Shown here piece after piece: positions 8,951-47,762 of a stretch of 64,000 nucleotides of DNA. The notes under the pieces were generated by a model, which was given only the letters and a program-made list of their open reading frames with translations, did no database searches and was not told the DNA's origin. The position numbers were made by a program, and so were the translations under genes. The stretch comes from a virus. Location: IMG/VR virus record IMGVR_UViG_3300010430_000014, positions 1 through 64,000 of that record; one strand, 5' to 3'. How positions within the stretch are numbered: position 1 is the first letter of the stretch; each line of letters opens with the position of its first letter.

Positions 8951-9145
8951 ATGTCAAAAATACAATTAACACCAAAACAAGTTTTAGAATGGATAATTTT
9001 GGGCATTAAAAATGAACGGTATCAAGCAGCAATGGATTTAGCTCAAGATTGTATTAATATATTTAATGAACAAGATGATAAAATACCTGAAAGATATAAA
9101 CGTAAATTAACTTTTGATATAAAAGAGAAAAAAGGAGATTTATAA
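8951..9145 (+). CDS. Hypothetical protein with KRKLTF motif
   Basis: AAGGA RBS. Confidence 0.6.
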   Translation: MSKIQLTPKQVLEWIILGIKNERYQAAMDLAQDCINIFNEQDDKIPERYKRKLTFDIKEKKGDL

Positions 9146-9656
9146 TGCCGAATAATAATGAAGAAAATACAGAATCAGAATACCTTAAAGAAAGCATGGG
9201 CATTGACGCACATCTTGAAAAACAATTTGAAACAATTGATAAAGATCGATTGGATTTACTCGATGAGGAATTATCTAATACCCAATCTGATAAGGAATTA
9301 TATAATATGATGCACAATGTTGATGCGTCAGCATCCTTATTCAAATTCCCTCTTGGAACAAAAGTCCGAAACCGCCACATGGAAGATGGTTATGTAAACA
9401 TGTGCGGAATTGACATGAGAGGAGTAATATACCGTGTCATTCATACAGAGGGCAGAAGACAATGGTACACCGAAACCGAAATTAAAATTGTTCTCTTTGA
9501 TCCCGAAAACAAAAAATCTGAATCAATTGAAACTTCTTCAACAATTAAAACGGATATCCCTCAACCTGGAGGAGATGAATCAACCTGGAGATCCCCAAAT
9601 GGAAATAAGGCAACTTGTGAATTCAATAACAAGTAAATTAACTTTTAATATAAAAG
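9102..9656 (+). repeat. 24-bp direct repeat pair (9102-9125, 9633-9656)
   Basis: GTAAATTAACTTTT[G/A]ATATAAAAG, 1 mismatch. Confidence 0.75.
9145..9636 (+). CDS. Hypothetical protein with SH3-like FKFPLGTKV domain
   Basis: ORF with RBS, flanked by 24-bp direct repeats. Confidence 0.6.
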   Translation: MPNNNEENTESEYLKESMGIDAHLEKQFETIDKDRLDLLDEELSNTQSDKELYNMMHNVDASASLFKFPLGTKVRNRHMEDGYVNMCGIDMRGVIYRVIHTEGRRQWYTETEIKIVLFDPENKKSESIETSSTIKTDIPQPGGDESTWRSPNGNKATCEFNNK

Positions 9657-9666
9657 GAGACTGATT

Positions 9667-9882
9667 ATGAAACTGTATTTTGTAGCATGGAAAATGTATG
9701 ATTCTGAACAATCAAACTTTGATTCACAATGGGTAGGATCTCAGGCTGAAGCTGCATCATTAAGAAAGAATGTAAGACAAAAACATGGTTACATACCAAA
9801 ATCAGTTGGAACAAAAACAATTAATGTGCCGACTGATAAAAGAGGTTTATTGAAATTTTTAAATGAACCTTCAAATTTCTAA
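9667..9882 (+). CDS. Hypothetical protein
   Basis: AAGGAG RBS; VPTDKRGLLKFLN. Confidence 0.65.
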   Translation: MKLYFVAWKMYDSEQSNFDSQWVGSQAEAASLRKNVRQKHGYIPKSVGTKTINVPTDKRGLLKFLNEPSNF

Positions 9883-9896
9883 AGGAATTATTAGTT

Positions 9897-10082
9897 ATGC
9901 CTAAAAAAATTAAAAGATTCTTTTCAACATATCGAGAAGCTAAAAAATATTTAAATACATTAATAAAAAGTAATTCTAATTTTAAACATACTCATATGAT
10001 TTACGATCTAAAGAAAACCCATCCAAGAAGAATAAAAACCCATTATTTAGTCGGAACATATTATGATTGGTTAGAATTATAA
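9897..10082 (+). CDS. Hypothetical protein
   Basis: AAGGA RBS. Confidence 0.55.
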   Translation: MPKKIKRFFSTYREAKKYLNTLIKSNSNFKHTHMIYDLKKTHPRRIKTHYLVGTYYDWLEL

Positions 10083-10122
10083 ATATTTAATTAATTTTTC
10101 GGGATCATAAGGAAAATTTGTT

Positions 10123-10584: not shown

Positions 10585-10602
10585 TTTTATTTTAATCAGT
10601 AG

Positions 10603-10638
10603 ATAGCTCGGTCTTTAATTGGATCGGGCTATTTTTTT
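10603..10638 (+). terminator. Intrinsic terminator
   Basis: ATAGCTCGGTC/GATCGGGCTAT stem followed by T7. Confidence 0.8.
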
Positions 10639-11468: not shown

Positions 11469-11522
11469 TGTTTTATTTTCCTTTCAATGGTCTTATATTC
11501 AATTAAGTGCAATCGCTTCATA

Positions 11523-29574: not shown

Positions 29575-29607
29575 AGCAGGGGATTGAACTCTTGATCCCC
29601 TGCTTAT
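29575..29607 (+). terminator. GC-rich hairpin, likely terminator
   Basis: AGCAGGGGAT/ATCCCCTGCT stem followed by TATTAT. Confidence 0.55.
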
Positions 29608-29624
29608 TATCTCATGGTGATAAC

Positions 29625-32993: not shown

Positions 32994-33009
32994 ACAAACG
33001 AAAGGAGTA

Positions 33010-34506
33010 ATGCTTATGTTAAACTTAACTAACTATCAAAAGGCAGGGTATGGTTGTGTGTTTGTCGAAACAATGGAAATTAAACGTGCAATCAAATCAA
33101 TTGAAATCGATGAACCATTTAAGAAAAAAATCTGGAGTCCTATTCGGGGCATCATCAATGATATGCACCAATTCGATAAAGATCAACCAATAAGTCCAAT
33201 TGATGTTCTTCGATTATCTGTCGGACAACAGGAAGATGGATCATTTGGCAATGCTCCACAAAACACCGCTTTTATTTTGGAAAATTTCGATGAATTCATT
33301 GAACAATTCGATGTAGTCCAGACTATCCTTGATATTTATGATCTATTAAAAGCCAATGCTACCATGATTATTATGGTGGGATCTAATGCAGAGGCGATTC
33401 CCTCCAAACTTAAAGAATTCATCCCTGTTGAAAAATTTGAATTACCAAATGATGAAGAAATCAAATTGATTGCTGATGGTATTGCCGAATCTTCAATTGA
33501 AGAATTAGGTGATAGCTATAAGGATAAATTTACAGTTAACAATTCAGTAATTGAAGCATTCAAAGGGTTGACTTGGGAAGAAATTGAAAACGCAGCAGCT
33601 AAATCAGCAGTTGAAACCCGATCATTCGATTATCGTCATATCATGGATCGTAAAGCAATGGTAATTAAAAAGACCGGATTCATGCAATTCATTGAACCTG
33701 AACCATTGGAAAATCTTGGTGGTCTGGATGAGTACAAAGAATATTGGCAATTAAGATCAGAACCTTTCCTTAATGAATCATCCAATAAGCCTAAAGTCAA
33801 AGCTATCCTTTGTGCCGGATACCCTGGAACTGGAAAAACACTTGCTGCTAAAGTCCTTTGTTCTATTCTCAATTGGCCTGGGATCTTATTCGACATTGGT
33901 GCAATTAAAGAGGGTATTGTAGGTGAAACTGAGAAGAAGATGCGTAGAGCAACATATACAATTGATTCCATTGGAAGATGCGTAATCATTATGGATGAAA
34001 TTGAAAAGTTCTTTGGATCTGAAAGTAATACAATGGACAGTGGTGTTCAATCAGGAATGCTTGGACATATGCTTACATGGATGCAAGAAAGACAATCTGA
34101 AGGTATTCTATTTGGAACGGCAAATAAACTCGATGCACTTCCACCTGAATTCAAAAGAGCAGGTGGTCGATGGGATACTATCTTCTTTGTTAATTTACCT
34201 AATCCTAATGAAGTCAAAAAGATAATTGAAATTCACAATCGAAAATATAATGCTGATGTTCAAACAGATAATAAATTTTGCGCTCAATTATCTAATGATG
34301 GATGGTCTGGAGCAGAAATTGAACAATTGGTTAAAGATTCTCATTATGAACCAATTGAAGAAGCAATGATACATATTCCTGTTCTTTCCAAACATGAAGC
34401 TAAAAAGTTTCAAAGAACAAGAGAACAAGCACAATTGTTTCGATGGGCTAATGAAAAGAAAGAAACAACAGAAGTTAAAAAACCCCGAAAAATTAAACTT
34501 CAGTAA
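33010..34506 (+). CDS. Ycf46-like AAA+ ATPase
   Basis: Degenerate N-terminal AAA, LGGL, GYPGTGKT, MDEIEK, ANKLDALPPEFKRAGGRWD. Confidence 0.88.
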   Translation: MLMLNLTNYQKAGYGCVFVETMEIKRAIKSIEIDEPFKKKIWSPIRGIINDMHQFDKDQPISPIDVLRLSVGQQEDGSFGNAPQNTAFILENFDEFIEQFDVVQTILDIYDLLKANATMIIMVGSNAEAIPSKLKEFIPVEKFELPNDEEIKLIADGIAESSIEELGDSYKDKFTVNNSVIEAFKGLTWEEIENAAAKSAVETRSFDYRHIMDRKAMVIKKTGFMQFIEPEPLENLGGLDEYKEYWQLRSEPFLNESSNKPKVKAILCAGYPGTGKTLAAKVLCSILNWPGILFDIGAIKEGIVGETEKKMRRATYTIDSIGRCVIIMDEIEKFFGSESNTMDSGVQSGMLGHMLTWMQERQSEGILFGTANKLDALPPEFKRAGGRWDTIFFVNLPNPNEVKKIIEIHNRKYNADVQTDNKFCAQLSNDGWSGAEIEQLVKDSHYEPIEEAMIHIPVLSKHEAKKFQRTREQAQLFRWANEKKETTEVKKPRKIKLQ

Positions 34507-34507
34507 A

Positions 34508-34792
34508 ATGAATAAATATATACAACAATATTGGACAATTGATTATGAAGATCCTGATCCATATCGAATATTAAAATGTCCTAATCCTAAATGTGGACAT
34601 GAACAAGCAGAAACAAAATGGGTAGGATGGCATTCAATGGAAATTGAAGCTAAATGTCCTAAATGTAAATGTGTTTATCTACATGATTGTGAAACAGGAG
34701 CAAGTGATTTAATTTTTGTTAAAAATATAATGACATTAAAACAAAAATTAAATGCAATTAAATTTAAATACCAATTAGAAAAAGGAGATTGA
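34508..34792 (+). CDS. Zn-ribbon hypothetical protein
   Basis: CPNPKC..CPKC. Confidence 0.65.
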   Translation: MNKYIQQYWTIDYEDPDPYRILKCPNPKCGHEQAETKWVGWHSMEIEAKCPKCKCVYLHDCETGASDLIFVKNIMTLKQKLNAIKFKYQLEKGD

Positions 34793-34793
34793 T

Positions 34794-35234
34794 ATGTCAC
34801 ATAATGAAATAATTGATTTAGAAATAGGTGATCTCAAAGTATTAGCTGCAACAGTTAAACGAATGAATGGCGAATTGATACTTAATAAAAAAACCTATCG
34901 TTGGTATGGACATAATGTTGGTGATTACCCTTTACCGGAAGGTGTTAAAGCAGAAGATCTTGGCAAATGTAAACATGCAATTGTATTTCCTGATATTGAT
35001 TATCAAGTCGGAGTAATTGAATCTCGATCTAAAAAAGGAGCATATGAATTACTTTGGGATTTTTATGATCGTCAATTGAAAGAAAGAATGGGAGGAGAAA
35101 AAGGAATTGCACTTATTCAACATTATACAATGGTAAAAGCTAAAAATGCTGCTACTCAAAAAGGTAAAATATGTCGTGAATCAATGATTAAAACCAAAAC
35201 AGGAATCAAACGCAAAATAGTAATCAACGTATAA
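34794..35234 (+). CDS. DUF1257 (Ycf35-like) protein
   Basis: MSH..I..EI.DL..L, YRWYG, Y.L.WDFY; next to Ycf46-like AAA. Confidence 0.75.
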   Translation: MSHNEIIDLEIGDLKVLAATVKRMNGELILNKKTYRWYGHNVGDYPLPEGVKAEDLGKCKHAIVFPDIDYQVGVIESRSKKGAYELLWDFYDRQLKERMGGEKGIALIQHYTMVKAKNAATQKGKICRESMIKTKTGIKRKIVINV

Positions 35235-35245
35235 AGGAGTCAATT

Positions 35246-35449
35246 ATGCAAAAACAAATAATCATAGAAGTCGATGAAAATGGAAAGATCAATTTTGAAA
35301 CTGACGGATTTGTTGGGCCAGAATGCGTTAATAATGATATAGTCAATCATATTAAAAATGCATTAGGCAATGGACTTGGGCCAGATCTTAAACCTATATT
35401 TTATCAGAAAGGTCAAACAAAAACAGTTCATAAAAATCTCTGTGGTTAA
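35246..35449 (+). CDS. DUF2997 protein
   Basis: IIIEVDENGKI.FETDGFVGPEC...LG...KP.FY. Confidence 0.85.
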   Translation: MQKQIIIEVDENGKINFETDGFVGPECVNNDIVNHIKNALGNGLGPDLKPIFYQKGQTKTVHKNLCG

Positions 35450-35477
35450 ACATAAAACAGGGGAATCATACTTTCAA

Positions 35478-36020
35478 ATGGATCTTTATAAAGTTATATT
35501 TATTATACCCTCAACTGGCAATCGAATTATATTTGATCAAGTTCAAGCTGAAGTTGAAATACAAGAAAAAAATTATGAACATAAAAATGCATTTGGTGCA
35601 ATTGATGCTATAATACCATTATCGCATTATTTAGATATTGTTCTTACAATACATCATCATGATATAGCTCAATTGAATGAAGTTAAAGGACAATTATATT
35701 CAGAAGAATTATATCTTCATTTTAAAGATGCTCATCCTTGTTTAATTCGTGGAACAGTAAGAGCAATGACATTTGATAATCATAATGCAACAGTTAGATT
35801 CAAGGGTAATACAATTGATAAAACTTACGATGATTATATTACAGAAGCAACTACTCAATTAAATGAAGCTTTTGAATATACTTTAGAATCAGAAAATCCA
35901 ATTGACGATGGTAAAACAGATTTTGATGAATGGAAAGAAGGTACAATTGTGAGTAAAGGAATAAATCAAGCAGATAAAGAAAAGAAAGGTAAAGTAATTA
36001 AACGCAAACTTACTTTTTAA
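35478..36020 (+). CDS. Hypothetical protein ending KRKLTF
   Basis: Open frame; start inferred at ATG 35478. Confidence 0.6.
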   Translation: MDLYKVIFIIPSTGNRIIFDQVQAEVEIQEKNYEHKNAFGAIDAIIPLSHYLDIVLTIHHHDIAQLNEVKGQLYSEELYLHFKDAHPCLIRGTVRAMTFDNHNATVRFKGNTIDKTYDDYITEATTQLNEAFEYTLESENPIDDGKTDFDEWKEGTIVSKGINQADKEKKGKVIKRKLTF

Positions 36021-36037
36021 AAGAAAGGAATAATGCT

Positions 36038-36931
36038 ATGCCGAAAATATCAAAAAACAAAAGCAATGAAATTAATATTTTTGACCTTGGAACCTTATGC
36101 CAATTTGAAACTCATTCATGGCAAGCACGTAAAACCATACCTAAAGAGATTAAAGAACGAATGACTGAAGAAACTGAATGGGTATCTGGTTTTAGACGAT
36201 TAATTAAAAAGGAACGTCTACAACCAATCAATTCAGTCATTACTTCAGTTCGGAACTATATTTGGGATATCTCTTTGGAATTTCCAATTAAATCCGTTCA
36301 TTTCATTTCCAATCAAGTTACAGAAGAAGCAGACATTAAACTCAGGGCATATGTTAAAATGCTTAAAAAAGAAGTTAATCTATTTGCCAAAGACTATGAC
36401 AAATGGATTAAGGAATCTGAAAAAGCCTTAAAGAAAGACGGATTATTCGATAAGGGATTATATCCAATGAATGTTAGGAATTTATATTCAATTGAATGGA
36501 GATGGTTTGACATGACTATCCCTGCCGGAATTACTGATGAGATGTATAAGGTTGAATCTGATCGTATTCAAAATATGATGGATGAAACAAGGCATAACTG
36601 CATTATCGCAATGCGTGAAGGATTTGGTCAATTGGTAATGCATTTAACCGATACTCTGAATGGTAAATTGGATGGTGAAAAGCGCAGGGTCAGACCTGAA
36701 TCATTGGAAAAGATTGACAAGTTCTTTGAAACCTTCAAATACAAAAATATATTCAATGATAATCAATTGCAAGGTATAGTTACTCAAGCTAAAGATCTGT
36801 TGTCTGATGTAACTCCTAAAGATATTCGCAATGATGAATCATTGACCAAATTGATTCATTCTGAATTAAGTGATATGCAAAATGAACTTTCTAAAGCAAC
36901 TGAAACATATAAACGTAAGTTAACCTTTTAG
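36038..36931 (+). CDS. DUF3150-like protein ending KRKLTF
   Basis: W...K...RRLI, F...Y.....E, YP...R..Y...W pattern; context with AAA/DUF1257/DUF2997. Confidence 0.6.
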   Translation: MPKISKNKSNEINIFDLGTLCQFETHSWQARKTIPKEIKERMTEETEWVSGFRRLIKKERLQPINSVITSVRNYIWDISLEFPIKSVHFISNQVTEEADIKLRAYVKMLKKEVNLFAKDYDKWIKESEKALKKDGLFDKGLYPMNVRNLYSIEWRWFDMTIPAGITDEMYKVESDRIQNMMDETRHNCIIAMREGFGQLVMHLTDTLNGKLDGEKRRVRPESLEKIDKFFETFKYKNIFNDNQLQGIVTQAKDLLSDVTPKDIRNDESLTKLIHSELSDMQNELSKATETYKRKLTF

Positions 36932-36941
36932 GAGTTACCTA

Positions 36942-37385
36942 ATGGCATATGATCCAGAATTTTCAGTTGATCGATATAACCTTGAAATTGAAGCAGAACG
37001 TCAATCAGCATTGATGCGTAAATGGACTAAACGACAAGGAAGACATAAATCATTACTCAAATCAGCACAAAAAAATCTGGATATTCTGGAAGGTGAATTA
37101 GCTGAAGAATATAGACGTAACAAAAAAACATATGGTATTCAAAAGGATACTGATCAAGTAATCTTTCGATTAATTAAAGGTGATCCTAAATATGAAACTC
37201 AATACAAAGAAGTAATAAAATATCAACGATTGTATGATGATGCTAAATCAGCAGTAGATTCAATTGTTGAGAAAGGATGGATGATTAAAGAATTGGTTAA
37301 ACTATGGTTAAATAATTATTATTCAAATCCAATTGTTAAAGAAAATGAAATTAAACCCAAACGAATTATTTTAAAGGAGGATTAA
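36942..37385 (+). CDS. UvsY-like recombination mediator
   Basis: DRYNLEIEAERQS..MRKW helical protein; next to SSB and RecA. Confidence 0.55.
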   Translation: MAYDPEFSVDRYNLEIEAERQSALMRKWTKRQGRHKSLLKSAQKNLDILEGELAEEYRRNKKTYGIQKDTDQVIFRLIKGDPKYETQYKEVIKYQRLYDDAKSAVDSIVEKGWMIKELVKLWLNNYYSNPIVKENEIKPKRIILKED

Positions 37386-37387: not shown

Positions 37388-38584
37388 ATGTCATTACAAG
37401 ATCGATTGAACAAAAACAAAGCAAAATTGGGATTAGGTACAAAATCTTCTGAAAGTGCAATTGTTGATAAGTTTAAAAAGCGCAGTACAACTACATTGGA
37501 AAAAACATATGATGATAGAGATAAACAGACTAAATCAGGTGGAATGGGTAAAACTATTTTTGATCCTGAAATGCTTATAGAATATGGATTAGAAGAATGG
37601 CAACCTCATCAAACAGTAGGTGATCACTTTTTTGATATCATGCCTGTTTCATTCGATCCATTGATTCCTTATTGCTTTGAAACATTAGTTCATTTTGCAG
37701 TAGGTTTCGCAAAAGATCAATACATTTGTCCTCATCATTCTCATAGAAAAACTTGCTATCGATGTGAAGCTCAATCAAAACTCTATCGTAAAAAGGAAGA
37801 AATGCTTAAAATATGGTCAGAAGAACGATTCAAAGATGCAGCAAAACGATTGTATCCAAGAGATAGAGTTATTTTCTTAATCTGGAAACGTACTGAAGAA
37901 TTACTGCAAGATGAACCATCTGATCTTACATTACGATTGTGGAATGCACCAAAAGAAGCAGTTCATAAAGAAATCCAAGCAAAAGTTAGAGATAAGATCA
38001 ATCGAACAACATTGGATATTTCTGATATCTCTCCTAATGGTGAAGGTCGAACTGTTGGAATGGAAATTGCAAAAAATAAAACATCAGCAGGTACATTTCC
38101 TGGGTATAGTGCATTTGAATTACATCCAAGAGAAAAACCAATTCCAAAGGAAATATTAGAACAATTGAATAAAATCATAATTGATGCAGATGAAAATGGT
38201 TTTAATAACGCAATTGAAATGTTCATTCACTTCCCTACCTATGAAGAAATCAAAGAATCAATGTTGACTGAAGAAGATGATGATGAAAAAACTCCTACTG
38301 CTTCTGACAAAAAATCATCATTAAAACAACAATTACAATCAAAAGACATAGAAGATGATAATAACAAAACAGTTACCGTTGAAGAAGTTTTAAAAGAAAT
38401 TGAATTAATATGTGCTGAATTACAAGAAATGCTTAATAAAAAATCTTCAATTGCATTTAAAGCATGGTGCAAAAATAATAATTACGAAGAAGCATTAGAA
38501 TTTTCTGAACAGACAGCAGCAGTTGAAGCTATTATTGAAGATTTTTATGAAAAACAAATAGCTGAAGCAGATGTTGATATTTAA
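37388..38584 (+). CDS. gp32-like single-stranded DNA-binding protein
   Basis: H..VG...CP....CYRCE Zn site, acidic C-terminus, next to recA. Confidence 0.7.
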   Translation: MSLQDRLNKNKAKLGLGTKSSESAIVDKFKKRSTTTLEKTYDDRDKQTKSGGMGKTIFDPEMLIEYGLEEWQPHQTVGDHFFDIMPVSFDPLIPYCFETLVHFAVGFAKDQYICPHHSHRKTCYRCEAQSKLYRKKEEMLKIWSEERFKDAAKRLYPRDRVIFLIWKRTEELLQDEPSDLTLRLWNAPKEAVHKEIQAKVRDKINRTTLDISDISPNGEGRTVGMEIAKNKTSAGTFPGYSAFELHPREKPIPKEILEQLNKIIIDADENGFNNAIEMFIHFPTYEEIKESMLTEEDDDEKTPTASDKKSSLKQQLQSKDIEDDNNKTVTVEEVLKEIELICAELQEMLNKKSSIAFKAWCKNNNYEEALEFSEQTAAVEAIIEDFYEKQIAEADVDI

Positions 38585-38615: not shown

Positions 38616-39743
38616 ATGGCAAGAATTAAATTGGAATCCAAAATACCCAATTTACGTGAGCGATTAAAAACTTGCGAAATATTGCCAGAAGTAGAGATAG
38701 GTTTAAAAAAACCTCTCTATTTTGTGGATTCGGGTTCTTGGATGTTAAATTTAGCATTAACAAATCAAGTGGATCAAGGTTATCCAGTCGGTAGAGTAAT
38801 TAATCCAATTGGAGATTATTCTACCGGAAAAACCTTATTAGCATGTGAAGAAGTCAATTCAATATGGTATTTGGAGCATATACTTAAAAATAAAAAAGTT
38901 AAAATCTATTATGATGAACCAGAACATGCTTTTGATTATCGATTAGCTGCAAAGTTTAATGTACCATTAAATGAAGTATATGGATTACGTGAAGATCTAA
39001 AAGGATACAAACATAAAAAAGGTGAAAAACCTTTTACACGATCACGTACAGTTGAAGATCTTTATAATAATCTTGATCGCATTACTAAAACTGAAAGTGA
39101 TTATGACATTGTTCTTTATGTATTAGATTCACTTGATTCATTAAGAGATGCAAGAGAAATTAAACATCTTAAAACAAAAGGTATTGCTAAACAAGACATG
39201 GGAGGATCTAAAGCAAGGGTATTATCTCAATTGTTTCGTAATATGATTGAAGGTGTACATAATTCAAATATTCTATTGTTTATCTTATCTCAAATCCGAA
39301 TGAATGTCGGTGTAGTATTTGGAGATCCAAATGGAAGGGCAGGTGGCAAAGCTCTGGATCATTATGCTTCACAAATGTTTATGCTCAAAGAAATTGGAAA
39401 AATTCAAACTGAGAAAAAAATCAATCAAGGAATTGAAGTTAGAGTTAAAATTAAAAAGAACAAAACAGGTAGTCGTTACAATGATGTTGTTTTTAATATT
39501 TTACATGGATATGGAATTGATAACTATGGATCTGCTGTAAATTTTCTTTGGGATGAAAAACAATTTGAACGATCCGGTAATTATCTTATTTTTAATGGAG
39601 AAAAAATGTATCGAGCAGATCTAATTGAATTAGCAGCTAACAATATAAATGTTGCAGATCTTTTAAAAGAAAAATTACAATTCTATTGGAATGAAATCGT
39701 TCTTGAAGCTGAGATTGATCGAAAACCTAAATGGGGAGGTTAA
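38616..39743 (+). CDS. recA: RecA/UvsX recombinase
   Basis: SGS..LN.AL, GDYSTGKT, VLDSLD, SQIR, GGKALDHYAS, KNK. Confidence 0.95.
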   Translation: MARIKLESKIPNLRERLKTCEILPEVEIGLKKPLYFVDSGSWMLNLALTNQVDQGYPVGRVINPIGDYSTGKTLLACEEVNSIWYLEHILKNKKVKIYYDEPEHAFDYRLAAKFNVPLNEVYGLREDLKGYKHKKGEKPFTRSRTVEDLYNNLDRITKTESDYDIVLYVLDSLDSLRDAREIKHLKTKGIAKQDMGGSKARVLSQLFRNMIEGVHNSNILLFILSQIRMNVGVVFGDPNGRAGGKALDHYASQMFMLKEIGKIQTEKKINQGIEVRVKIKKNKTGSRYNDVVFNILHGYGIDNYGSAVNFLWDEKQFERSGNYLIFNGEKMYRADLIELAANNINVADLLKEKLQFYWNEIVLEAEIDRKPKWGG

Positions 39744-40795: not shown

Positions 40796-41351
40796 CATAA
40801 ACTGGATATTTAACAATCATTCAACAGAAAGGTTTTTTGAACGTACCTCTTTAAATTCAACTAAAAAACAAATTGCTAAAGCAATAATTAATAAACAAAT
40901 AACACCCTTCAAAAGAATAAATGTTACTCGATCTATGACTTACATTCATGTGAATAAAGAAATCATTAAAACTGTTATGCATCGAAAGAAAAATAAAATC
41001 ATTACAATCCTACCCTGGAAGTCCATCTATCAATACATTATCAAATTAGAAATTACTCAATATCAAAGTGGAGTATATACTATTCATCTATTCCCTGATT
41101 GTTACCTTGAAACTAATAAACCAAATGCTTTGACCAAAATATATAGAGAAAATATTGAAAATATTGAATACAATCATCCATTATTCAATACAATATTTAA
41201 TATAGCATGGTATTATTTTCAATTAGATGAAGAACATAAAACTATACAAAAGAAAAGGATAACAGGGAATGAAACGTTTGAAATTAAAAGAAAAGCCAAA
41301 ACGATTGAGCCTATCATCCGATACGGAATCGACCATTGCGAATTACATTGA
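40782..41351 (+). CDS. Hypothetical protein (RelE/DUF4258-like H..ER..ER)
   Basis: HSTERFFER...IITILP. Confidence 0.55.
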   Translation: MKRNNINWIFNNHSTERFFERTSLNSTKKQIAKAIINKQITPFKRINVTRSMTYIHVNKEIIKTVMHRKKNKIITILPWKSIYQYIIKLEITQYQSGVYTIHLFPDCYLETNKPNALTKIYRENIENIEYNHPLFNTIFNIAWYYFQLDEEHKTIQKKRITGNETFEIKRKAKTIEPIIRYGIDHCELH

Positions 41352-41610
41352 TAATATAGAATATTTGTTAGACGAATATCATTTACACACAAAAATAAAT
41401 GAAGATCTTCCCTATTATAAATGGATTAAATACACTGACCATTTACCATTAAATGAACATAGACCTATCTTAATTTACGATTCACATTATGATAACATAT
41501 CTGAAGGTATCTCTTTTGTTGCTCTACAACATGGTTTATACAGTAAGTACATGAAATATGATAAGTATTTACCTTCCCACTGGATGCGAATAAAAAAACC
41601 GGAGGATTAA
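41269..41610 (+). CDS. DUF551-like protein
   Basis: WIK..D.LP...SHWM.I..P. Confidence 0.7.
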   Translation: MKRLKLKEKPKRLSLSSDTESTIANYIDNIEYLLDEYHLHTKINEDLPYYKWIKYTDHLPLNEHRPILIYDSHYDNISEGISFVALQHGLYSKYMKYDKYLPSHWMRIKKPED

Positions 41611-42891: not shown

Positions 42892-43807
42892 TAGTCATTT
42901 AACCGGACGCAATCCTATTGCACGTTTAGATGATCTTGTTGAACTCCAATTTGAAAAATGGAAAGAAATTGTACATCATGCAAATTATTATGATGTACCA
43001 ATCATTCATGCCGGAGATATATTTAACGTTGCAGTAGTAGCAAACTCATTACTTACTCGATTGGGAGAAATATTAAATAAATTAAAACAACCATTATATT
43101 TTGTTTGGGGCAATCATGATCTTCAATATCATTCACCTGAAATGTGGGATCGTACATCTCTTGGAGTACTTTGGAAAAACAATAATAAAGTAAAACATAT
43201 CTCTGAATTTTTCATGAATTATAAAGCTAAAATTAATTGGGCATGGTGGGATTGGGGATCAGATGATATACAATGGTTAGGTAATCCTCCAAAATTATTG
43301 CTCAGTCATAAAGCAATTGTTAATGATAAATTAACTGGAACAAACTCATGGATTCAAAATGATCGAGAATTCTGTCATCCAATAAAGGAAGTACATCCAA
43401 AATTTAAACTTGTTATCTGTGGTCATTGGCATAGAACTTATAACTATAACTATCAAGGTACAAGGGTTATAAATCCTGGGCCAATGATCAGACGCACAGT
43501 TGATGAATGGTTAAAACCTTCAGTTATATTATTAAATATTGATACATTAATACATAAGAAAATCTATTTAGACACCCCTGATCCAGAACTCATATTATCC
43601 AGAACACATATTGAACAGAAAATTGAAACCAGAACAGATAATATTGTCAAATTTGTTGATGCATTAAAAATTAAAAAGGAATCTAAAAAAGCATCGTTTA
43701 TGAAAAATCTATTTCATAACTTAGATCAACATGAAATTCCACCAAGAGTTGAAAAGGTAATTAGAGAAACAGTAATGAGATTAATAGAAAAAGGACAATT
43801 AAAATGA
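42869..43807 (+). CDS. sbcD: SbcD/Mre11-like nuclease
   Basis: DSH, GDIF, GNHD, GHWH, NPGP. Confidence 0.92.
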   Translation: MEILVVADSHLTGRNPIARLDDLVELQFEKWKEIVHHANYYDVPIIHAGDIFNVAVVANSLLTRLGEILNKLKQPLYFVWGNHDLQYHSPEMWDRTSLGVLWKNNNKVKHISEFFMNYKAKINWAWWDWGSDDIQWLGNPPKLLLSHKAIVNDKLTGTNSWIQNDREFCHPIKEVHPKFKLVICGHWHRTYNYNYQGTRVINPGPMIRRTVDEWLKPSVILLNIDTLIHKKIYLDTPDPELILSRTHIEQKIETRTDNIVKFVDALKIKKESKKASFMKNLFHNLDQHEIPPRVEKVIRETVMRLIEKGQLK

Positions 43808-44319
43808 CAAAAAGAAAATTATTTTTTAAAAACACAACTCCCTCTACTTCTTGTGATCATGTTCAACACCATTGGTTATCTGATTTATCGTGGAAAATGC
43901 AAACAGTAATAAACCAGGGGTTTCGTGCGCCTGATACACATTTTTGTAAAAAAGTTAAAATAATATGTAGATGGATAAGATCAGTTGTGTTACAAAATGC
44001 AGACAAAGAACATACTTTCATGTGTACAAAAAAAGAAATGCCTGAAGTAGAAGAATTAGAACATGAATTAAACTATTGCTCTGTTCATTTTGCCTCTCAT
44101 TTTTTATATGCTTTAGAAATAATCGGTTATATGCATCCTGATTCAGAAATAAGAGCTTTGGGTATTAAATATTATGAAGGAATCACAAAAGATCTTTGGC
44201 ATTTTAATTGTGAAACTAAAAAACAATTAAAAATACGTTTAGCAGATGTAGATCATACACCTGTTGTAAAAGAGTGTCCAAAAGAAGAATATAATGATAG
44301 ATATATAAACTATGGATAA
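43804..44319 (+). CDS. Phage hypothetical protein
   Basis: W...L..KMQ....RAPD, HF..H...ALEIIGY.HP. Confidence 0.7.
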   Translation: MTKRKLFFKNTTPSTSCDHVQHHWLSDLSWKMQTVINQGFRAPDTHFCKKVKIICRWIRSVVLQNADKEHTFMCTKKEMPEVEELEHELNYCSVHFASHFLYALEIIGYMHPDSEIRALGIKYYEGITKDLWHFNCETKKQLKIRLADVDHTPVVKECPKEEYNDRYINYG

Positions 44320-44646: not shown

Positions 44647-45222
44647 ATGATAGAACAATTATACGAAAACATTACAAATTTAGAAACCGAATTGGTGATA
44701 GCTGAACGGTTTCTGAATTCCAATAGGATCACCATTGCAAAGGAAAAATCTTTAATAGAAACCTTTGAGATGGCAAAAGCATATATTATTCGTGTCGGAG
44801 AACACACACAAAAGGAGGTAAAGAAGTTCATTGAAGACACTGTAACTTTTGCTATACAAACTGTTCATGGAGATGAATATAGTTTTATAGCAGATTTTAA
44901 TTATGACAAAAGAGATCAACTTGAAATTAAATGGTTCATTAGTAAATATGGTAATCTTCTTGAACCACGTAAAGATACAATTTCTGGTAGTTTAACTGAC
45001 GTTAGTGCTTTCTCACTCAGATTTGTCATTCATGCATTAGAAGAACCTGAACCTGCACCTATCTTTATTATGGATGAACCATTTAAAAATTGTTCAAAGA
45101 AGTATATCCCTTTGGTGTCACAAATGGTAAAAGAAATTTCTAAATTATTAAACCTTCAGATTGTTATGTGTAGTCACACTGATGAGTTAATTGAAATGGC
45201 AGACAATATTATTTATATGTAG
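44647..45222 (+). CDS. sbcC: SbcC/Rad50-like ATPase, C-terminal half
   Basis: Signature ISGS, Walker B IFIMDEPF, H-loop CSH. Confidence 0.88.
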   Translation: MIEQLYENITNLETELVIAERFLNSNRITIAKEKSLIETFEMAKAYIIRVGEHTQKEVKKFIEDTVTFAIQTVHGDEYSFIADFNYDKRDQLEIKWFISKYGNLLEPRKDTISGSLTDVSAFSLRFVIHALEEPEPAPIFIMDEPFKNCSKKYIPLVSQMVKEISKLLNLQIVMCSHTDELIEMADNIIYM

Positions 45223-45359
45223 ACCAGAGAGGACATTGACTATGAAATGGAAACAAGTTGAGCATGAAAATCATAAAGGGTTAATAACAAACAAAGGACA
45301 GAATTATTTAAAAAAAATAAAAGACATATGTAAAAAATTATATTGATGGAGATATAGCC

Positions 45360-45767
45360 ATGTACTGTGAATGCTTTCAGGCTACTATGTCCGTCAATGC
45401 TTGCATAAGAAGACAAGGATGGGCAAAGTTATACAAAAAAGAAGTGACAGACAAACCTGTTCATGACCATTCACTAATTACCTGCCAAATGTGTACCACA
45501 GGTAAAAAGGTAATTAAAAATCCCGACTGTTTTATAAATAGAGATTATCAATCCTTAAAAAATAAACACTTACAAACTATCAGATGTAGAGGATGGTTAT
45601 TCAAAGATGGTATCTCTTATGAATCTTTATTTGATTCTTTTAATTATACTATGATTAAAAAAGGAGGAAATAACAATGGTGAAAATTCAGCAATCTTTAA
45701 ACTCAATCAACAAGAACGAATTAATAGATTTGTTAGAAAACACAGGCGTCTTGCAAGAAGTAAATAG
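45360..45767 (+). CDS. Cys-containing hypothetical protein
   Basis: C...C..RQ...CQMC..G. Confidence 0.6.
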   Translation: MYCECFQATMSVNACIRRQGWAKLYKKEVTDKPVHDHSLITCQMCTTGKKVIKNPDCFINRDYQSLKNKHLQTIRCRGWLFKDGISYESLFDSFNYTMIKKGGNNNGENSAIFKLNQQERINRFVRKHRRLARSK

Positions 45768-46296
45768 AACTTTCTTTAACCCTTTAGGATTAAATTTAAT
45801 TTTAAAACCAGATCTGACTTTAGATCTTCAAAAAGCAGACAATGATTATGGTATTGCTGTGCATACAATAGATAAATTTAAATTAGGTGCATTCAATGCT
45901 TACAGAATGAAAAGACATGAAAGAAGACAACAAAGACTTGGTTTTATTATTCAAACCCAAGACTTTATTCGTGGTAACAAATTTGAAGAAGAAGATATTA
46001 ATCTTGCTTCACCGGAATCCTTAAAATTAAATACATTATTACGTTGCATCGATAATATTGCTTATCGTGCAAAAAGAAGACTTATGGAAAACTCTCACGA
46101 CAAAGACAAAGATGCACAATCAATAAATTATAGAGCATTATATCATAGTCTGGAAGTTGATATTGCCAATAGTAATTATGTTGATGCAATAGCAAAATCA
46201 GCTATTTTATTATTTGAATCAGAAATCGATGATAAAATTGAAAAGATAAAAAAAGATAAAGAAAAAAAGGATAAACTATTTAAAAAGGAAAAATAA
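45676..46296 (+). CDS. Phage hypothetical protein
   Basis: G.LQEVNR.FF.PLGL motif; AGGAGG RBS. Confidence 0.75.
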   Translation: MVKIQQSLNSINKNELIDLLENTGVLQEVNRTFFNPLGLNLILKPDLTLDLQKADNDYGIAVHTIDKFKLGAFNAYRMKRHERRQQRLGFIIQTQDFIRGNKFEEEDINLASPESLKLNTLLRCIDNIAYRAKRRLMENSHDKDKDAQSINYRALYHSLEVDIANSNYVDAIAKSAILLFESEIDDKIEKIKKDKEKKDKLFKKEK

Positions 46297-46473
46297 ATGG
46301 CTAAGAAAAAATTAAAAAAGGTAAGAAAAAGATCATTAACCATTAGACTTAAAAAAGAAACAGACAATCATTTATTTATTATCATTGCCATAAGTGATAA
46401 TAATTTTAAATGGCATGAATTAAAATTAAAAATTCCAAAAAGCAGATTTAAAGAAATGTAAAGGAAATAATAA

Positions 46474-46884
46474 ATGGCACGATTAAGTCTTCAAACTAAA
46501 GGAGAAGAAAACTTAGTAATTGAACGAAAGATTTCTTCTAAAGATCCAAACTACATACAAGTAAATGATCCATCTAATTTCAATCTGTTAAGAGACAACA
46601 GACATAATGATGAATCTTTTTCCAGAGTGGACAGATTCATGGTTAATCATTACTGGAGAGTTGGTATTGAAATACTATATGAAAGAATATTCTATCCATC
46701 TCAATTTGGTTTTGAAGAAATAGAAGATGATAAATATCATCCTTATAAAAATATGTGTAATCAATTAATAAAAAAAGGTATTGGTCTTTATGGTGATCGG
46801 CCTATACCTCAAATTAGAAAACCTGTTCAACGTCTTACATTAGAATGTAGACCAAAAAGGATGAAATTAGAATGCAAAGACTAA
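46474..46884 (+). CDS. Hypothetical protein with RLxL repeats
   Basis: AAGGA RBS. Confidence 0.65.
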   Translation: MARLSLQTKGEENLVIERKISSKDPNYIQVNDPSNFNLLRDNRHNDESFSRVDRFMVNHYWRVGIEILYERIFYPSQFGFEEIEDDKYHPYKNMCNQLIKKGIGLYGDRPIPQIRKPVQRLTLECRPKRMKLECKD

Positions 46885-47762
46885 AATTAATACCAAATCT
46901 CGATGATGAAATCACTCTTATAATTGATGGTAGGTTCTTAGCATATCGAACCATGTATTCACAACATGGTAAAATGTCTCATAAAGGAAATGATACTGGA
47001 ATGATTTATGGATTTTTTAAATCCCTTCAGTCTATTGCTAATAAATTTGAAGTTACCAATACAGTTATCATGTGGGATGTAACTCCATCAAAAGAAGGTA
47101 TTCGTAGAGAAGAATATGAAGGTTACAAAGTCAGGGAATTAAAAGAAAAACCTGATCCTAAAGAAATAGCTATGAGAAAACAATTTGAATTTGATTATGA
47201 AGATCTTCTTTTTCTTACACATAAAATGGGATTCGCTGATTACGTTCTTCCACGTTATGAAGCTGATGATATCATAGCTTTATTTTGTAAATGCTTTGGT
47301 GGTAAAAAAATAATAGCTACCAGAGATGAAGACATGTATCAGTTAATCAATGAAAATACTATGGTATATGATCCTGCTGCTAAAAAGAAAAAAGATTTAA
47401 AATGGTTCATGAAAACTTACGGTATCAACCCCGAACAATGGGTAGACTACAAAGCAATTGCCGGATGCAAATCAGATACCGTTCCAGGCATTCCAGGCAT
47501 GGGCCATAAAAGAACATTAGATTATTTACAAGGTAAAAAGGATTATGAAAATAAAATAGTAGAACATGATAATTTATATCAATTATGTTATAATCTTGTT
47601 AAACTGCCTCATCCTTCATTAGATGGTCAAAGAATGCAATGGTTAAGAACTAATTTAGATGAAGAACAATTCATATCTTTTTGTCAATCATATAACTTTC
47701 AATCATTTTTAAATGAGATACATAACTTTTATATTTTTATGGAAGGAGGGAAATCTTGGTGA
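46872..47762 (+). CDS. 5'-3' exonuclease / flap endonuclease (PolI N-domain type)
   Basis: IIDG, YK..R, EADD, D.D..QL, G.KSD.VPG.PG.G. Confidence 0.93.
   Translation: MQRLKLIPNLDDEITLIIDGRFLAYRTMYSQHGKMSHKGNDTGMIYGFFKSLQSIANKFEVTNTVIMWDVTPSKEGIRREEYEGYKVRELKEKPDPKEIAMRKQFEFDYEDLLFLTHKMGFADYVLPRYEADDIIALFCKCFGGKKIIATRDEDMYQLINENTMVYDPAAKKKKDLKWFMKTYGINPEQWVDYKAIAGCKSDTVPGIPGMGHKRTLDYLQGKKDYENKIVEHDNLYQLCYNLVKLPHPSLDGQRMQWLRTNLDEEQFISFCQSYNFQSFLNEIHNFYIFMEGGKSW

What the first reader, a model, noticed from the sequence alone, without database searches (positions are those of the whole stretch)
8951..47000. Shared terminal peptide tag KRKL[TS]F / R[LI]xL on many unrelated proteins
Seen: three unrelated proteins end exactly in the motif: Pol N-part RRKLSF* (31196), 35478..36020 KRKLTF* and the DUF3150-like protein KRKLTF* (36931). 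8951..9145 has KRKLTF near its end, 43804 begins KRKLFF, and DUF4326 begins KRKIHF..RHKLTF. Looser versions end the AAA (PRKIKLQ*), DUF1257 (KRKIVI) and UvsY-like (KRIIL) proteins. They also start RecA (MARIKL), the 5'-3' exonuclease (MQRLKL), 41269 (KRLKL..KRLSL) and 46474 (RLSL..RLTL..RMKL). Codons differ between copies (aaa cgc aaa ctt act ttt; aaa cgt aag tta acc ttt; aga aga aag tta tca ttt), so selection is on the peptide, not a DNA repeat. Inference: a phage-wide docking, localisation or degradation tag. Candidates are a clamp/processivity-factor motif (cf. beta-clamp QL[SD]LF) or a substrate tag for the phage Ycf46-like AAA module.
Basis: partly seen in the sequence, partly recalled or inferred. 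Interest (0 to 1): 0.8.

Follow-up and report, generated by a model that had tools for sequence, protein, structure and literature searches.

The report
Shared terminal docking peptide, phage replication proteins
Many unrelated replication and recombination proteins of this uncultured phage carry the same short basic-hydrophobic peptide at one end, probably an address tag for one shared, still unidentified docking site linked to a co-encoded protein-unfolding ATPase module.

Summary
RKLxF occurs 5 times in the 139 ORFs of the 89-kb genome, always within 10 residues of a terminus and 3 times exactly C-terminal (0 of 20,000 shuffles gave 2 or more). The looser form [KR][KR]-h-x-h marks 9 C-termini against about 2 expected, 7 of them in the replication arm. 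Relatives down to 30-45% identity keep the tag, while the linkers before it and its codons vary. So selection acts on the peptide.

The tail R-x-h-x-h is ancestral to the DUF3150 family (114 of 150 homologs). It co-occurs with a Ycf46-like AAA / DUF1257 / DUF2997 cassette whose ATPase folds like Cdc48/p97. In this clade it has spread to the PolA exonuclease subunit, UvsY, RecA, FEN and small accessory ORFs.

The best reading is a docking or recognition tag read by that cassette, but the receptor is not identified. The beta-clamp idea fails the motif definition. The DUF1257 "tag" looks like a structural strand.

This scan has already noted shared tails on this AAA+ module in other phage genomes. 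I found nothing about it in print.

The parts
29625..31196 (+). PolA N-part (UDG-like + 3'-5' exonuclease). A low-complexity linker precedes the C-terminal tag RRKLSF (codons 31176-31193).
   Evidence: Pfam UDG and DNA_pol_A_exo1. Tag kept in 10 of 11 family members, as RRKLSF, KRKIQF, KRKFLF+5 or NRKFDF+acidic.
33010..34506 (+). Ycf46-like AAA ATPase with a Cdc48/p97-like tandem fold. Its disordered C-terminal tail ends PRKIKLQ (34483-34503).
   Evidence: Pfam AAA at 266-395. Foldseek matches p97/Cdc48/Rix7 at E 8e-19 over about 548 columns. Tail pLDDT is below 50. 32 of 33 homologs down to 44% identity end in R-[KQ]-[LIV]-x-[LIY] plus 0-2 aa.
34794..35234 (+). DUF1257 (Ycf35-like) protein ending KRKIVINV. 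The tail is probably a structural strand rather than a tag.
   Evidence: 47% identity, E 1e-37, to an annotated DUF1257. Distant homologs end in alternating hydrophobic strands without the basic residues.
35246..35449 (+). DUF2997-like small protein, untagged; a member of the cassette.
   Evidence: Pfam DUF2997 E 3.1e-4, 21.0 bits, below the 24.1 cutoff. Same gene order as the annotated cassette.
35478..36020 (+). 180-aa protein of unknown family. A hypervariable linker precedes the C-terminal tag KRKLTF (36000-36017).
   Evidence: 7 of 7 homologs down to 39% identity keep KRKLTF (+0/1 aa), while the 20-50 aa before it vary. 15 of 15 in loci.
36038..36931 (+). DUF3150-like protein with C-terminal tag KRKLTF (36911-36928).
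   Evidence: Pfam DUF3150 E 7.3e-4 for the window protein; 35 of 45 aligned homologs match. 114 of 150 homologs have R-x-h-x-h in the last 22 aa, against 5.5% of internal windows.
36942..37385 (+). UvsY-like mediator with C-terminal KPKRIILKED (37353-37382).
   Evidence: phrog_231, phrog_1069. KPKR-[ILF]-x-L is kept with x variable; 18 of 24 members by the strict pattern.
38616..39743 (+). RecA/UvsX-like recombinase with N-terminal tag MARIKL (38616-38633).
   Evidence: Pfam RecA. 19 of 24 family members have [KR]-h-x-h in the aligned first 12 residues; 3 of the 5 misses carry it just upstream of that aligned stretch.
41269..41610 (+). DUF551-like protein beginning MKRLKLK.
   Evidence: Pfam DUF551 E 1e-3. 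MKRLKLK is kept in orthologs.
46474..46884 (+). 136-aa protein with an N-terminal MARLSL and a C-terminal PKRMKLECKD.
   Evidence: One ortholog keeps both: L044 has MAKLNLK (internal start) and PTRMKLTCKEED. L040 ends KRFKL..RVKLNLRLS and shows no clear N-terminal tag.
46872..47762 (+). 5'-3' exonuclease (FEN) beginning MQRLKL.
   Evidence: Pfam 5_3_exonuc_N. Its 2 orthologs begin MPKLKL and (internal start) MQRRRLI.
43804..44319 (+). Accessory 171-aa ORF beginning MTKRKLFF.
   Evidence: No ortholog in 5 related genomes. In relatives a different small tagged ORF lies just after the Mre11-like gene (L006 17982-18251 ends GKRKLTFK).
8951..9145 (+). 64-aa early ORF with KRKLTF (9098-9115) 9 residues from its end.
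   Evidence: No ortholog in 5 related genomes.
6354..6767 (+). DUF4326 protein beginning MNKKRKIHF, with KRHKLTF at residues 18-24.
   Evidence: Pfam DUF4326 E 4e-20. The putative G001 counterpart (140 aa; homology not tested) begins MEAKRKIWFDPEYR.
37388..38584 (+). gp32-like SSB, untagged; a rival candidate receptor. It has an acidic C-terminal helical domain and an acidic tip ADVDI.
   Evidence: Alignment A4 has a conserved C..C-x-x-C zinc motif and C-terminal domain. C-terminal domain pI 4.1. 'gp32-like' rests on my reading of the zinc motif and synteny; Pfam gave no match.

Best explanation
The peptide is a short linear docking or recognition motif with core R-x-h-x-h (h = L/I/F). In this clade the core is flanked by extra Lys/Arg and often a Pro two or three residues upstream. 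It is displayed at the extreme C- or N-terminus, usually after a disordered linker.

It is the ancestral C-terminal tail of DUF3150 proteins, and in this phage group also of the Ycf46-like, Cdc48/p97-fold ATPase. Both belong to a conserved cassette: AAA, DUF1257, DUF2997, DUF3150. In this phage lineage the same tail has been acquired by the PolA exonuclease subunit, UvsY, RecA, FEN and several small accessory ORFs.

Inferred mechanism: all tagged proteins bind, in an extended conformation, one pocket on a phage-encoded component of that cassette. My first choice is the acidic pseudo-ATPase D1 half of the AAA. The second is a DUF1257/DUF2997 complex. This would couple replication and recombination proteins to an ATP-driven remodelling machine, for recruitment, recycling or extraction from DNA.

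Shown: the motif, its terminal position, peptide-level conservation, family-wide ancestry and co-occurrence with the cassette. Inferred: that there is one receptor, which protein it is, and what binding achieves.
For: Terminal enrichment:
- 3 exact C-terminal RKLxF copies against 0.002-0.003 expected; 0 of 20,000 shuffles reached 2.
- 9 C-terminal loose tags, reached by 2 of 20,000 shuffles.
- Replicated in whole related genomes: G001 has 7 against a shuffle mean of 1.76 (5 of 3,000 shuffles reach it). G003 has 8 against 2.57 (5 of 3,000). G002 is weaker, 5 against 2.1 (181 of 3,000).

Peptide-level selection:
- Leu, Thr, Ser, Arg and Phe codons vary inside an unchanged tag.
- Linkers are hypervariable next to invariant KRKLTF.

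Family pattern:
- Among 30 families with 4 or more members, 7 are tagged in most members (68-100%) and the other 23 in 0-2 members.

Ancestry:
- 114 of 150 DUF3150 homologs carry [KRA]-P-x-R-[KR]-[ILF]-x-[LF] near the end, against 5.5% of internal windows.

Co-occurrence outside the clade:
- The tail and the Ycf46-like AAA are both present in Tunturi_3 and a Manganitrophus plasmid.
- Both are absent in 3 plasmids where a DUF3150-like gene sits between a MoxR-type ATPase and a VWA protein.

Other points:
- The AAA has a Cdc48/p97 fold.
- Its D1-like half is acidic: net -13, pI 4.7.
- Non-homologous small ORFs in the slot before DUF3150 carry mostly the same first hydrophobic residue as that genome's DUF3150 tail (L, F or I; two of the pairs differ).
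Against: - No binding was tested or modelled; no multimer prediction was available.
- The AAA carries the tag itself, and in its AF2 monomer model the tail is simply disordered and docks nowhere.
- Co-occurrence outside the clade rests on only 5 records.
- All IMG/VR loci were found through DUF3150 or the gp32-like gene, so they cannot show tags without the cassette.
- The covariation of the hydrophobic residue spans only about 5 lineages and is not clean. In G003 the PolA N-part ends KRISL while DUF3150 ends RRKFSF.
- N-terminal enrichment in the single genome is marginal (374 of 20,000 shuffles).
- DUF1257 is basic (pI 9.4), which does not favour it as receptor for this basic version of the tag.
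Confidence: 0.42

Rival explanations
1. The hub is the phage gp32-like single-strand-binding protein. The tags dock on its clade-specific acidic C-terminal helical domain or its core, recruiting polymerase, RecA, UvsY and FEN to SSB-coated DNA.
For: - From recalled knowledge of T4, the tagged set (polymerase, RecA/UvsX, UvsY, FEN) is the classical set of gp32 interactors.
- The protein has an extra conserved acidic C-terminal domain, pI 4.1.
- It is encoded directly beside the tagged genes.
Against: - The DUF3150 tail is conserved in Tunturi_3 and in Manganitrophus plasmids. The gp32-like profile finds nothing there (0 of 3 records), while it does find G001 and G002.
- This hub does not explain why the AAA and the small ORFs inside the cassette are tagged.
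Confidence: 0.15
2. The tag is a variant clamp-binding motif that tethers phage proteins to the host beta sliding clamp.
For: - Clamp-binding motifs are also short, sit at disordered C- or N-termini, and are shared by unrelated proteins (passages of PMC11139829).
- The tag's hydrophobic residues at i and i+2 resemble L-x-[LF].
Against: - The definition Q-phi-x-[LM]-[FL] or Q-phi-x-[LM]-x-[FL] is not met by any tag: there is no Gln at position 1 and no aliphatic residue at position 2.
- Acidic flanks or a free carboxylate favour clamp binding, whereas these tags are strongly basic.
- The tagged proteins include an AAA ATPase, DUF3150, RecA and UvsY, which I do not recall as clamp clients.
- The first hydrophobic residue varies with phage lineage, which is unexpected for a conserved host pocket.
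Confidence: 0.05
3. The tag is a recognition signal for a host AAA+ protease or chaperone (ClpX-type degron or DnaK-binding site) that controls turnover or remodelling of phage proteins.
For: - 30 of 150 DUF3150 homologs end in Ala-Ala after the motif. From memory this resembles ssrA-type ClpX signals.
- Also from memory, the MuA C-terminal ClpX signal and DnaK-binding peptides are basic-hydrophobic.
- A terminal, disordered placement suits threading.
Against: - None of the window's tags ends in Ala-Ala.
- The motif tracks a phage- and plasmid-borne cassette, not a host lineage.
- Tagging essential replication enzymes for host degradation seems costly.
- Nothing here tests ClpX or DnaK.
Confidence: 0.12
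4. The tails are non-specific anchors to membrane or DNA (polybasic plus hydrophobic), or targeting signals for a compartment or the capsid.
For: - A basic cluster plus two hydrophobic residues at termini resembles membrane-targeting or DNA-binding tails (recalled).
- Oligomers such as an AAA hexamer or a RecA filament would give avidity.
Against: - The core kept across the family is R-x-h-x-h with strict i, i+2 spacing. In many DUF3150 homologs it is followed by acidic residues, and the basic flank is lineage-specific. That fits a protein pocket better than lipid or DNA.
- Pfam, run on about 40 of the 139 ORFs, found no compartment shell protein; none was searched for specifically.
Confidence: 0.08
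5. Chance or compositional artefact of Lys-rich termini in an AT-rich genome.
For: - C-terminal decapeptides are Lys-enriched, 12.4% against 8.5% overall.
- Single pairs of similar C-termini occur by chance.
- The N-terminal signal is marginal.
Against: - Shuffling only the terminal 12 residues still reaches the observed C-terminal count in just 2 of 20,000 trials.
- Orthologs keep the tag through synonymous change and linker turnover.
- The enrichment repeats in other complete genomes.
Confidence: 0.02

Closest known systems
Beta-clamp binding motif (CBM) and PCNA PIP box
   Same: A 5-6 residue linear motif in disordered C- or N-termini of many unrelated replication and repair proteins, all read by one pocket (passages of PMC11139829).
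   Different: The sequence rule is not met: no Gln, and basic instead of acidic flanks. The bearers include an AAA ATPase, DUF3150, RecA and UvsY. No clamp is encoded. The motif tracks a mobile-element cassette.
Docking tails of proteasome activators: HbYX of PAN/Rpt/Cdc48, and GQYL shared by Mpa and Bpa
   Same: A C-terminal tail on a Cdc48-like or classic-clade AAA ATPase, shared with unrelated proteins that dock on the same partner.
   Different: There is no penultimate Tyr. The tag also works from N-termini and with residues after it, so a free carboxylate is not required. No peptidase ring was found among the ORFs that I scanned with Pfam.
Vps4 MIT domain reading MIM tails of ESCRT-III; ClpX N-domain reading the SspB tail (recalled)
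   Same: An AAA+ machine that selects several clients or adaptors through short terminal peptides on flexible linkers.
   Different: No MIT-like or zinc-binding N-domain is present. The N-half of this ATPase is a D1-like alpha/beta domain. The ATPase bears the tag itself.
Acidic C-terminal tails of bacterial SSB, T7 gp2.5 and T7 gp4 (PMC10359462 seen as search listing and abstract only; the rest recalled)
   Same: Shared terminal tails organise a phage replisome. This phage's gp32-like SSB (ADVDI) and DnaB-like helicase (EKEIGIDY) also carry acidic tails of this kind.
   Different: Opposite charge and opposite topology: here many clients carry the tag and one receptor is presumed.
Ycf46 (AAA) / Ycf35 (DUF1257) / DUF2997 gene set of cyanobacteria and plastids, with DUF3150 on mobile elements
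   Same: The window's cassette is homologous and syntenic with an annotated AAA-DUF1257-DUF2997-DUF3150 operon.
   Different: The cellular set has no assigned mechanism in the papers my searches listed (listings and abstract openings only). Here it sits inside a replication operon and shares its tail with replication enzymes.

Membership tests
Beta-clamp binding motif (CBM) | Gln at position 1 followed by an aliphatic residue (Q-phi) | tested here: not met
   Definition from passages of PMC11139829. None of the tags listed has Q-phi. FEN has MQRLKL, where Q is followed by R.
Beta-clamp binding motif (CBM) | [LM] then [FL] directly or after one residue, in a disordered terminal or loop segment | tested here: inconclusive
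   The L-x-F / L-x-L part and the disordered terminal position fit, but this part alone is not specific.
Beta-clamp binding motif (CBM) | Acidic flank or free carboxylate favoured near the pocket | tested here: not met
   Tags are flanked by 2-4 Lys/Arg. The preference is stated in PMC11139829.
HbYX / GQYL proteasome-docking tails | Hydrophobic-Tyr-X (or GQYL) at the extreme C-terminus, needing the free end | tested here: not met
   There is no penultimate Tyr. Tags also occur at N-termini and with 1-10 residues after them. The motif definition is recalled, not from a call.
ssrA-like / MuA-like ClpX C-terminal signals | C-terminal Ala-Ala, or a basic RRKKAI-like end (recalled definitions) | tested here: inconclusive
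   No window tag ends in AA. 30 of 150 DUF3150 homologs do.
DUF3150 (PF11348) | Match to the Pfam profile | tested here: inconclusive
   The window protein scores E 7.3e-4, 19.4 bits, below the 24.9 cutoff. However, 35 of 45 aligned homologs match at E <= 1e-3, best 7.5e-16, and 2,027 homologs were found at E <= 1e-3.
Ycf46-like AAA / DUF1257 / DUF2997 / DUF3150 cassette | Homologs of all four genes in the same order | tested here: met
   AAA: 31% identity, E 7e-62. DUF1257: 47% identity, E 1e-37, both to the annotated Manganitrophus cassette. DUF2997: Pfam E 3.1e-4. The order is AAA, DUF1257, DUF2997, DUF3150, with two inserted ORFs.
Cdc48/p97-type tandem AAA unfoldase | Two stacked AAA-fold domains (D1-D2) matching p97/Cdc48 over both | tested here: met
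   Foldseek against PDB: p97, Cdc48, Rix7, NVL at E about 1e-18 over 505-579 columns, TM (query) 0.41-0.60. Model pLDDT 83.5.
Cdc48/p97-type tandem AAA unfoldase | Active nucleotide sites in both rings, an N-domain for cofactors, and hexamer threading activity | not testable with these tools
   Pfam AAA matches only residues 266-395, so D1 looks like a pseudo-ATPase. No N-domain precedes it. Activity is untested.

The most novel reading that the evidence does not exclude
The tag is the address code of a phage-encoded Cdc48/p97-like segregase. The ATPase and its DUF1257/DUF2997/DUF3150 partners would read R-x-h-x-h tails. Through these tails they would load, recycle or extract the polymerase exonuclease subunit, RecA, UvsY and FEN on DNA. 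That would be a viral counterpart of p97-driven replisome disassembly. It would also give the first mechanistic handle on the Ycf46/Ycf35/DUF2997 genes of cyanobacteria and plastids.
Probability: 0.2. Interest if true: 0.85.

Novelty: new variant of a known kind. Interest (0 to 1): 0.72.

Why it matters
Hub-and-motif wiring (clamp motifs, SSB tails, proteasome docking tails) is how replication machines are organised. Here a different motif appears to wire a phage's polymerase, recombinase, mediator and flap nuclease to an unstudied, widespread ATPase cassette.

- The tag gives a direct experimental hook, by peptide pull-down or tail deletion, for finding what the Ycf46-like / DUF1257 / DUF2997 / DUF3150 module does. 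None of the papers my searches listed addresses this (read as listings and abstract openings, plus one passage).
- It also offers a way to predict the module's clients in any genome from terminal sequence alone.

Tried and rejected
- DNA similarity of 29592-36931 to cultured phages: none.
- The search for related loci with the PolA N-part and with P0105: no relatives.
- Structure of the DUF3150-like protein (pLDDT 90.8): no Foldseek match at E <= 1e-3, and only generic helical-bundle matches by VIA-align (Z up to 10, below the level trusted for helical bundles), so no function could be inferred.
- AF2 monomer of the AAA, to see whether its own tail docks on it: the tail is disordered, which is uninformative.
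- ESM Atlas for the AAA N-half and the 180-aa protein: only unnamed clusters (viral and cyanobacterial) or scores below 0.9.
- PADLOC: only generic IetA-type AAA matches for the ATPase, and nothing for the other 7 proteins.
- Search for relatives that keep UvsY, gp32 and RecA without the cassette: the gp32-like profile returned contigs of the same phage group, nearly all already held, so this test could not be made.
- Wider co-occurrence test in bacterial genomes: alignments A2 and A6 were too divergent for pattern scans. Cultured phage and plasmid collections gave only 1 phage and a few plasmid lineages.
- DUF1257 tail as a tag: rejected as a general feature.
- The pair 7153-7425 / DUF1257 sharing KIV.NV: a single pair is at chance level.
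- Literature: DUF3150 gave 1 paper, unrelated. DUF1257 or DUF2997 gave 5 papers, none on mechanism as far as the 4 listed abstract openings show. Ycf46 + phage gave 4 papers; in one I read a passage that mentions only the ATPase superfamily. Ycf46 + Ycf35 gave 17 papers; the 10 listed are plastid or organelle genome papers by title. Supplementary files were not opened.

Full report
WHAT THE WINDOW IS.
- The window is the first 64 kb of an 89,161-bp, 31% G+C single-contig virus record.
- Genes at 27-53 kb on the + strand form a replication and recombination arm (Pfam and PHROGs). In order:
  - a conserved 540-aa acidic protein;
  - a family A polymerase split into a UDG-like + 3'-5' exonuclease part (29625-31196) and a catalytic part (31782-32993);
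  - an AAA ATPase (33010-34506);
  - small ORFs;
  - a DUF3150-like protein (36038-36931);
  - a UvsY-like mediator;
  - a 398-aa protein that I read as gp32-like SSB from its zinc motif and position (Pfam gave no match);
  - RecA;
  - a PDDEXK nuclease;
  - Rad50/Mre11-like proteins;
  - a 5'-3' exonuclease;
  - two methyltransferases;
  - a DnaB-like helicase, an SF2 helicase and a primase-like protein.
- No clamp or clamp loader was detected.

- In a mechanical set of 139 ORFs (28,448 aa), RKLxF occurs 5 times against 0.33 expected.
  - All 5 copies lie within 10 residues of a terminus.
  - 3 are the last five residues of unrelated proteins: PolA N-part, the 180-aa protein at 35478-36020, and DUF3150-like.
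  - The expected number of exact C-terminal copies is 0.0016, or 0.0031 with C-terminal composition.
  - 34 of 20,000 whole-protein shuffles gave one such copy and none gave two.
- An unbiased count of ORF pairs sharing at least 4 of their last 5 residues gave 5 pairs. Three of them are this trio. Five or more pairs arose in 5 of 5,000 shuffles of the last 30 residues and in 3 of 5,000 draws of random internal pentamers.
- The looser form [KR][KR][ILMF]x[LFI] lies in the last 12 residues of 9 of 143 ORFs.
  - Shuffling just those 12 residues reached 9 in 2 of 20,000 trials.
  - 7 of the 9 are among the 39 ORFs of the 27-53 kb arm. The 70 early ORFs have 1 and the 34 ORFs of the rest of the genome (53-89 kb, mostly structural) have 1.
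- The N-terminal count (5) was reached in 374 of 20,000 trials. It is marginal by itself and partly confounded by signal peptides.

CONSERVATION SHOWS SELECTION ON THE PEPTIDE.
- Forty-two IMG/VR loci from this phage group were retrieved. Several overlap on the same contigs.
- The 180-aa protein keeps KRKLTF in 7 of 7 database homologs down to 39% identity, while the preceding 20-50 residues differ in length and sequence. It also keeps the tag in 15 of 15 locus copies.
- The PolA N-part keeps a tag in 10 of 11 copies: RRKLSF, KRKIQF, KRKFLF plus 5 residues, or NRKFDF plus an acidic tail.
- 32 of 33 homologs of the ATPase, down to 44% identity, end in R-[KQ]-[LIV]-x-[LIY] plus 0-2 residues after a variable linker. 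The one exception is a shorter protein.
- UvsY-like proteins keep KPKR-[ILF]-x-L with x free.
- RecA proteins carry [KR]-h-x-h in the aligned first 12 residues in 19 of 24 copies. In 3 of the 5 misses the motif lies just upstream of that aligned stretch.
- The two FEN orthologs and the DUF551-like orthologs keep their N-terminal copies. One of the two orthologs of 46474 keeps both its tags; the other keeps only C-terminal ones.
- Inside the unchanged tag, codons for Leu (TTA, CTA, CTG, CTT, TTG), Thr, Ser (TCT, AGC, AGT), Arg (CGT, CGC, AGA) and Phe vary.
- Among 30 protein families with at least 4 members, 7 are C-terminally tagged in 68-100% of members and the other 23 in 0-2 members.
- Over 508 unique + strand ORFs, 99 of 238 motif hits end within 4 residues of the C-terminus. 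These ORFs are related, so this is a description and not an independent test.
- Whole related genomes repeat the enrichment:
  - G001: 7 tagged C-termini against a shuffle mean of 1.76 (5 of 3,000 shuffles reach it), all in its replication arm.
  - G003: 8 against 2.57 (5 of 3,000).
  - G002: 5 against 2.1 (181 of 3,000). Its tags use E/Q/D before the Arg and escape my pattern.

WHERE THE TAG COMES FROM.
- The DUF3150-like protein has 2,027 homologs at E <= 1e-3 among 1.84 billion representatives.
- Of the best 150, 114 have R-x-h-x-h in the last 22 residues, against 5.5% of internal 22-residue windows.
  - The consensus is [KRA]-P-x-R-[KR]-[ILF]-x-[LF].
  - It is followed by nothing or by a short tail rich in Asp, Glu and Ala. 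30 of the 150 end in Ala-Ala.
  - So the tail is an old feature of this family, and the invariant part is the Arg and the two hydrophobic residues.
- On a Candidatus Manganitrophus plasmid the annotated gene order is AAA, DUF1257, DUF2997, DUF3150.
  - The window's ATPase is 31% identical to that AAA (E 7e-62).
  - The window's 146-aa protein is 47% identical to that DUF1257 (E 1e-37).
  - 35246-35449 weakly matches DUF2997.
- Tunturiibacter phage Tunturi_3 has the same set more loosely. Its DUF3150 homolog, annotated as HNH endonuclease, ends DRKFHLEGEEF. One other protein of 172 ORFs ends VRKIRLDNE.
- Three plasmids (Cupriavidus, Simplicispira, Rhodovastum) have a more distant DUF3150-like gene between a 341-347-aa ATPase and a VWA-like protein.
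  - There the tail is absent, and the Ycf46-like ATPase profile finds nothing (0 of 3).
  - The same profile does find Tunturi_3 and the Manganitrophus plasmid.

THE ATPASE.
- The AF2 model (pLDDT 83.5) has an N-terminal alpha/beta plus helical half, a canonical AAA half, and a disordered last 14 residues.
- Foldseek aligns both halves with the D1-D2 body of p97, Cdc48, Rix7 and NVL (E about 1e-18, 505-579 columns).
- Pfam sees an AAA domain only in the second half, so the first half looks like a pseudo-ATPase. It is acidic: net -13, pI 4.7.

WHICH PROTEIN READS THE TAG.
- Nothing here shows binding, so this section is inference.
- A phage-encoded reader inside the cassette is favoured for these reasons:
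  - the family-wide ancestry of the tail in DUF3150;
  - its co-occurrence with the Ycf46-like set;
  - the crowding of tagged ORFs in and around the cassette;
  - non-homologous small ORFs in the slot before DUF3150 that end in R-[KR]-h-x-F, mostly with the same first hydrophobic residue as that genome's DUF3150 tail. That residue is L in the window's clade, F in L024 and L025, and I in L027 and L028; two pairs differ (V against I in L022, and one F against I pair in L025).
- This covariation is suggestive only. It covers about five lineages, and G003's polymerase part ends KRISL while its DUF3150 ends RRKFSF.
- The gp32-like SSB is an attractive hub for polymerase, RecA, UvsY and FEN, and it has an acidic extra domain. 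It is absent from Tunturi_3 and two Manganitrophus plasmids that keep the DUF3150 tail, and the positive control worked in G001 and G002.
- The beta clamp fails the published motif definition and its flank preference (passages of PMC11139829).
- A host ClpX- or DnaK-type reader stays possible. The Ala-Ala ends point that way for some DUF3150 homologs. The resemblance to known ClpX and DnaK signals is recalled and comes from no call.
- That the ATPase itself carries the tag argues against a simple 'substrate degron'. It fits better with a common docking site, or with competition between the ATPase's own tail and client tails.

DUF1257.
- Its KRKIVINV end matches the pattern in close relatives (15 of 22).
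- Distant homologs end in alternating hydrophobic strands without the basic residues, for example ..ITLQISVGG and ..VKLVISVS.
- I read it as a structural strand, not as a tag.

RELATION TO EARLIER NOTES OF THIS SCAN.
- I consulted the notes by words and by sequence only after I had reached the reading above.
- I found that 31 findings in at least 25 genomes mention this module. Several follow-ups describe a lineage-specific tail shared by the Cdc48-like ATPase, DUF3150 and other proteins, with the docking site unidentified.
- These are unchecked AI notes. They agree with my result but do not count as evidence for it.
- What this window adds:
  - the tag sits on core replication and recombination enzymes;
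  - it is used at both N- and C-termini;
  - there is a small co-occurrence test against the MoxR/VWA-linked DUF3150-like genes;
  - the gp32-like SSB is excluded as the ancestral reader.

LITERATURE.
- None of the papers that my searches for DUF3150, DUF1257/DUF2997, Ycf46 + phage, and Ycf46 + Ycf35 listed describes the tag or a mechanism for the cassette.
- I read these as listings and abstract openings, plus one passage. Supplements were not opened.

VERDICT.
- This is a genuine, conserved, peptide-level terminal motif shared by at least seven protein families.
- It is most likely a docking or recognition tag tied to the Cdc48-like AAA cassette, and the receptor is unknown.
- It is a new variant of the known hub-and-motif principle and is directly testable.

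Noticed in passing
window 37388-38584 and 48447-49835; L024, L025, L029 orthologs: A second class of tails, acidic with a hydrophobic or aromatic tip. The gp32-like SSB ends ADVDI here and ..GAIPF, ..EDDLPF, ..GDDIPY in relatives. The DnaB-like helicase ends EKEIGIDY. UvsY-like proteins of relatives end ..DEADEY. From memory these resemble bacterial SSB and T7 gp2.5/gp4 tails.
   Followed up: partly
window 29625-32993: The family A polymerase is split. A conserved ORF of about 200-224 aa (31108-31782; 33-40% identical in relatives) lies between the exonuclease part and the catalytic part and overlaps the end of the first part.
   Followed up: partly
window 27931-29553: A conserved 540-aa acidic protein (net -17) directly upstream of the polymerase. 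It has no Pfam, PHROG or PADLOC match. It is present in 11 relatives and is untagged, so it is another conceivable binding platform.
   Followed up: no
L010 11905-12864 (Tunturiibacter phage Tunturi_3 gp96): This gene is annotated as HNH endonuclease but is a DUF3150 homolog (29.8% identity, E 1e-31 to P0105). It sits downstream of an ATPase and of small ORFs placed like DUF1257 and DUF2997 (their homology was not tested), so the annotation is probably wrong.
   Followed up: partly
L029 6935-9256; protein P0190: Some relatives have an enlarged ATPase (773-781 aa) with precomputed intein-splicing and HNH domains, so the AAA gene hosts an intein in those phages.
   Followed up: no
window 53547-54035 (- strand): A 162-aa ORF next to the amidase gene has a lipoprotein-like N-terminus (MVMKKLIIGLVLCM..) and ends AKRLLFIQ. 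It matches the tag pattern outside the replication arm, and whether this is meaningful is unknown.
   Followed up: no
window 7153-7425 and 34794-35234: Two unrelated ORFs end ..KIKIVLNV and ..KRKIVINV. A single pair like this is at chance level in the pair test.
   Followed up: partly
L006 17982-18251, L016 10557-10817, L043 19474-19746; slot between DUF2997 and DUF3150 in L012, L022, L024, L025, L027, L028: Variable small ORFs with no detectable mutual similarity occupy fixed slots and all end in R-[KR]-h-x-F. The tag appears to be gained readily by accessory genes.
   Followed up: partly
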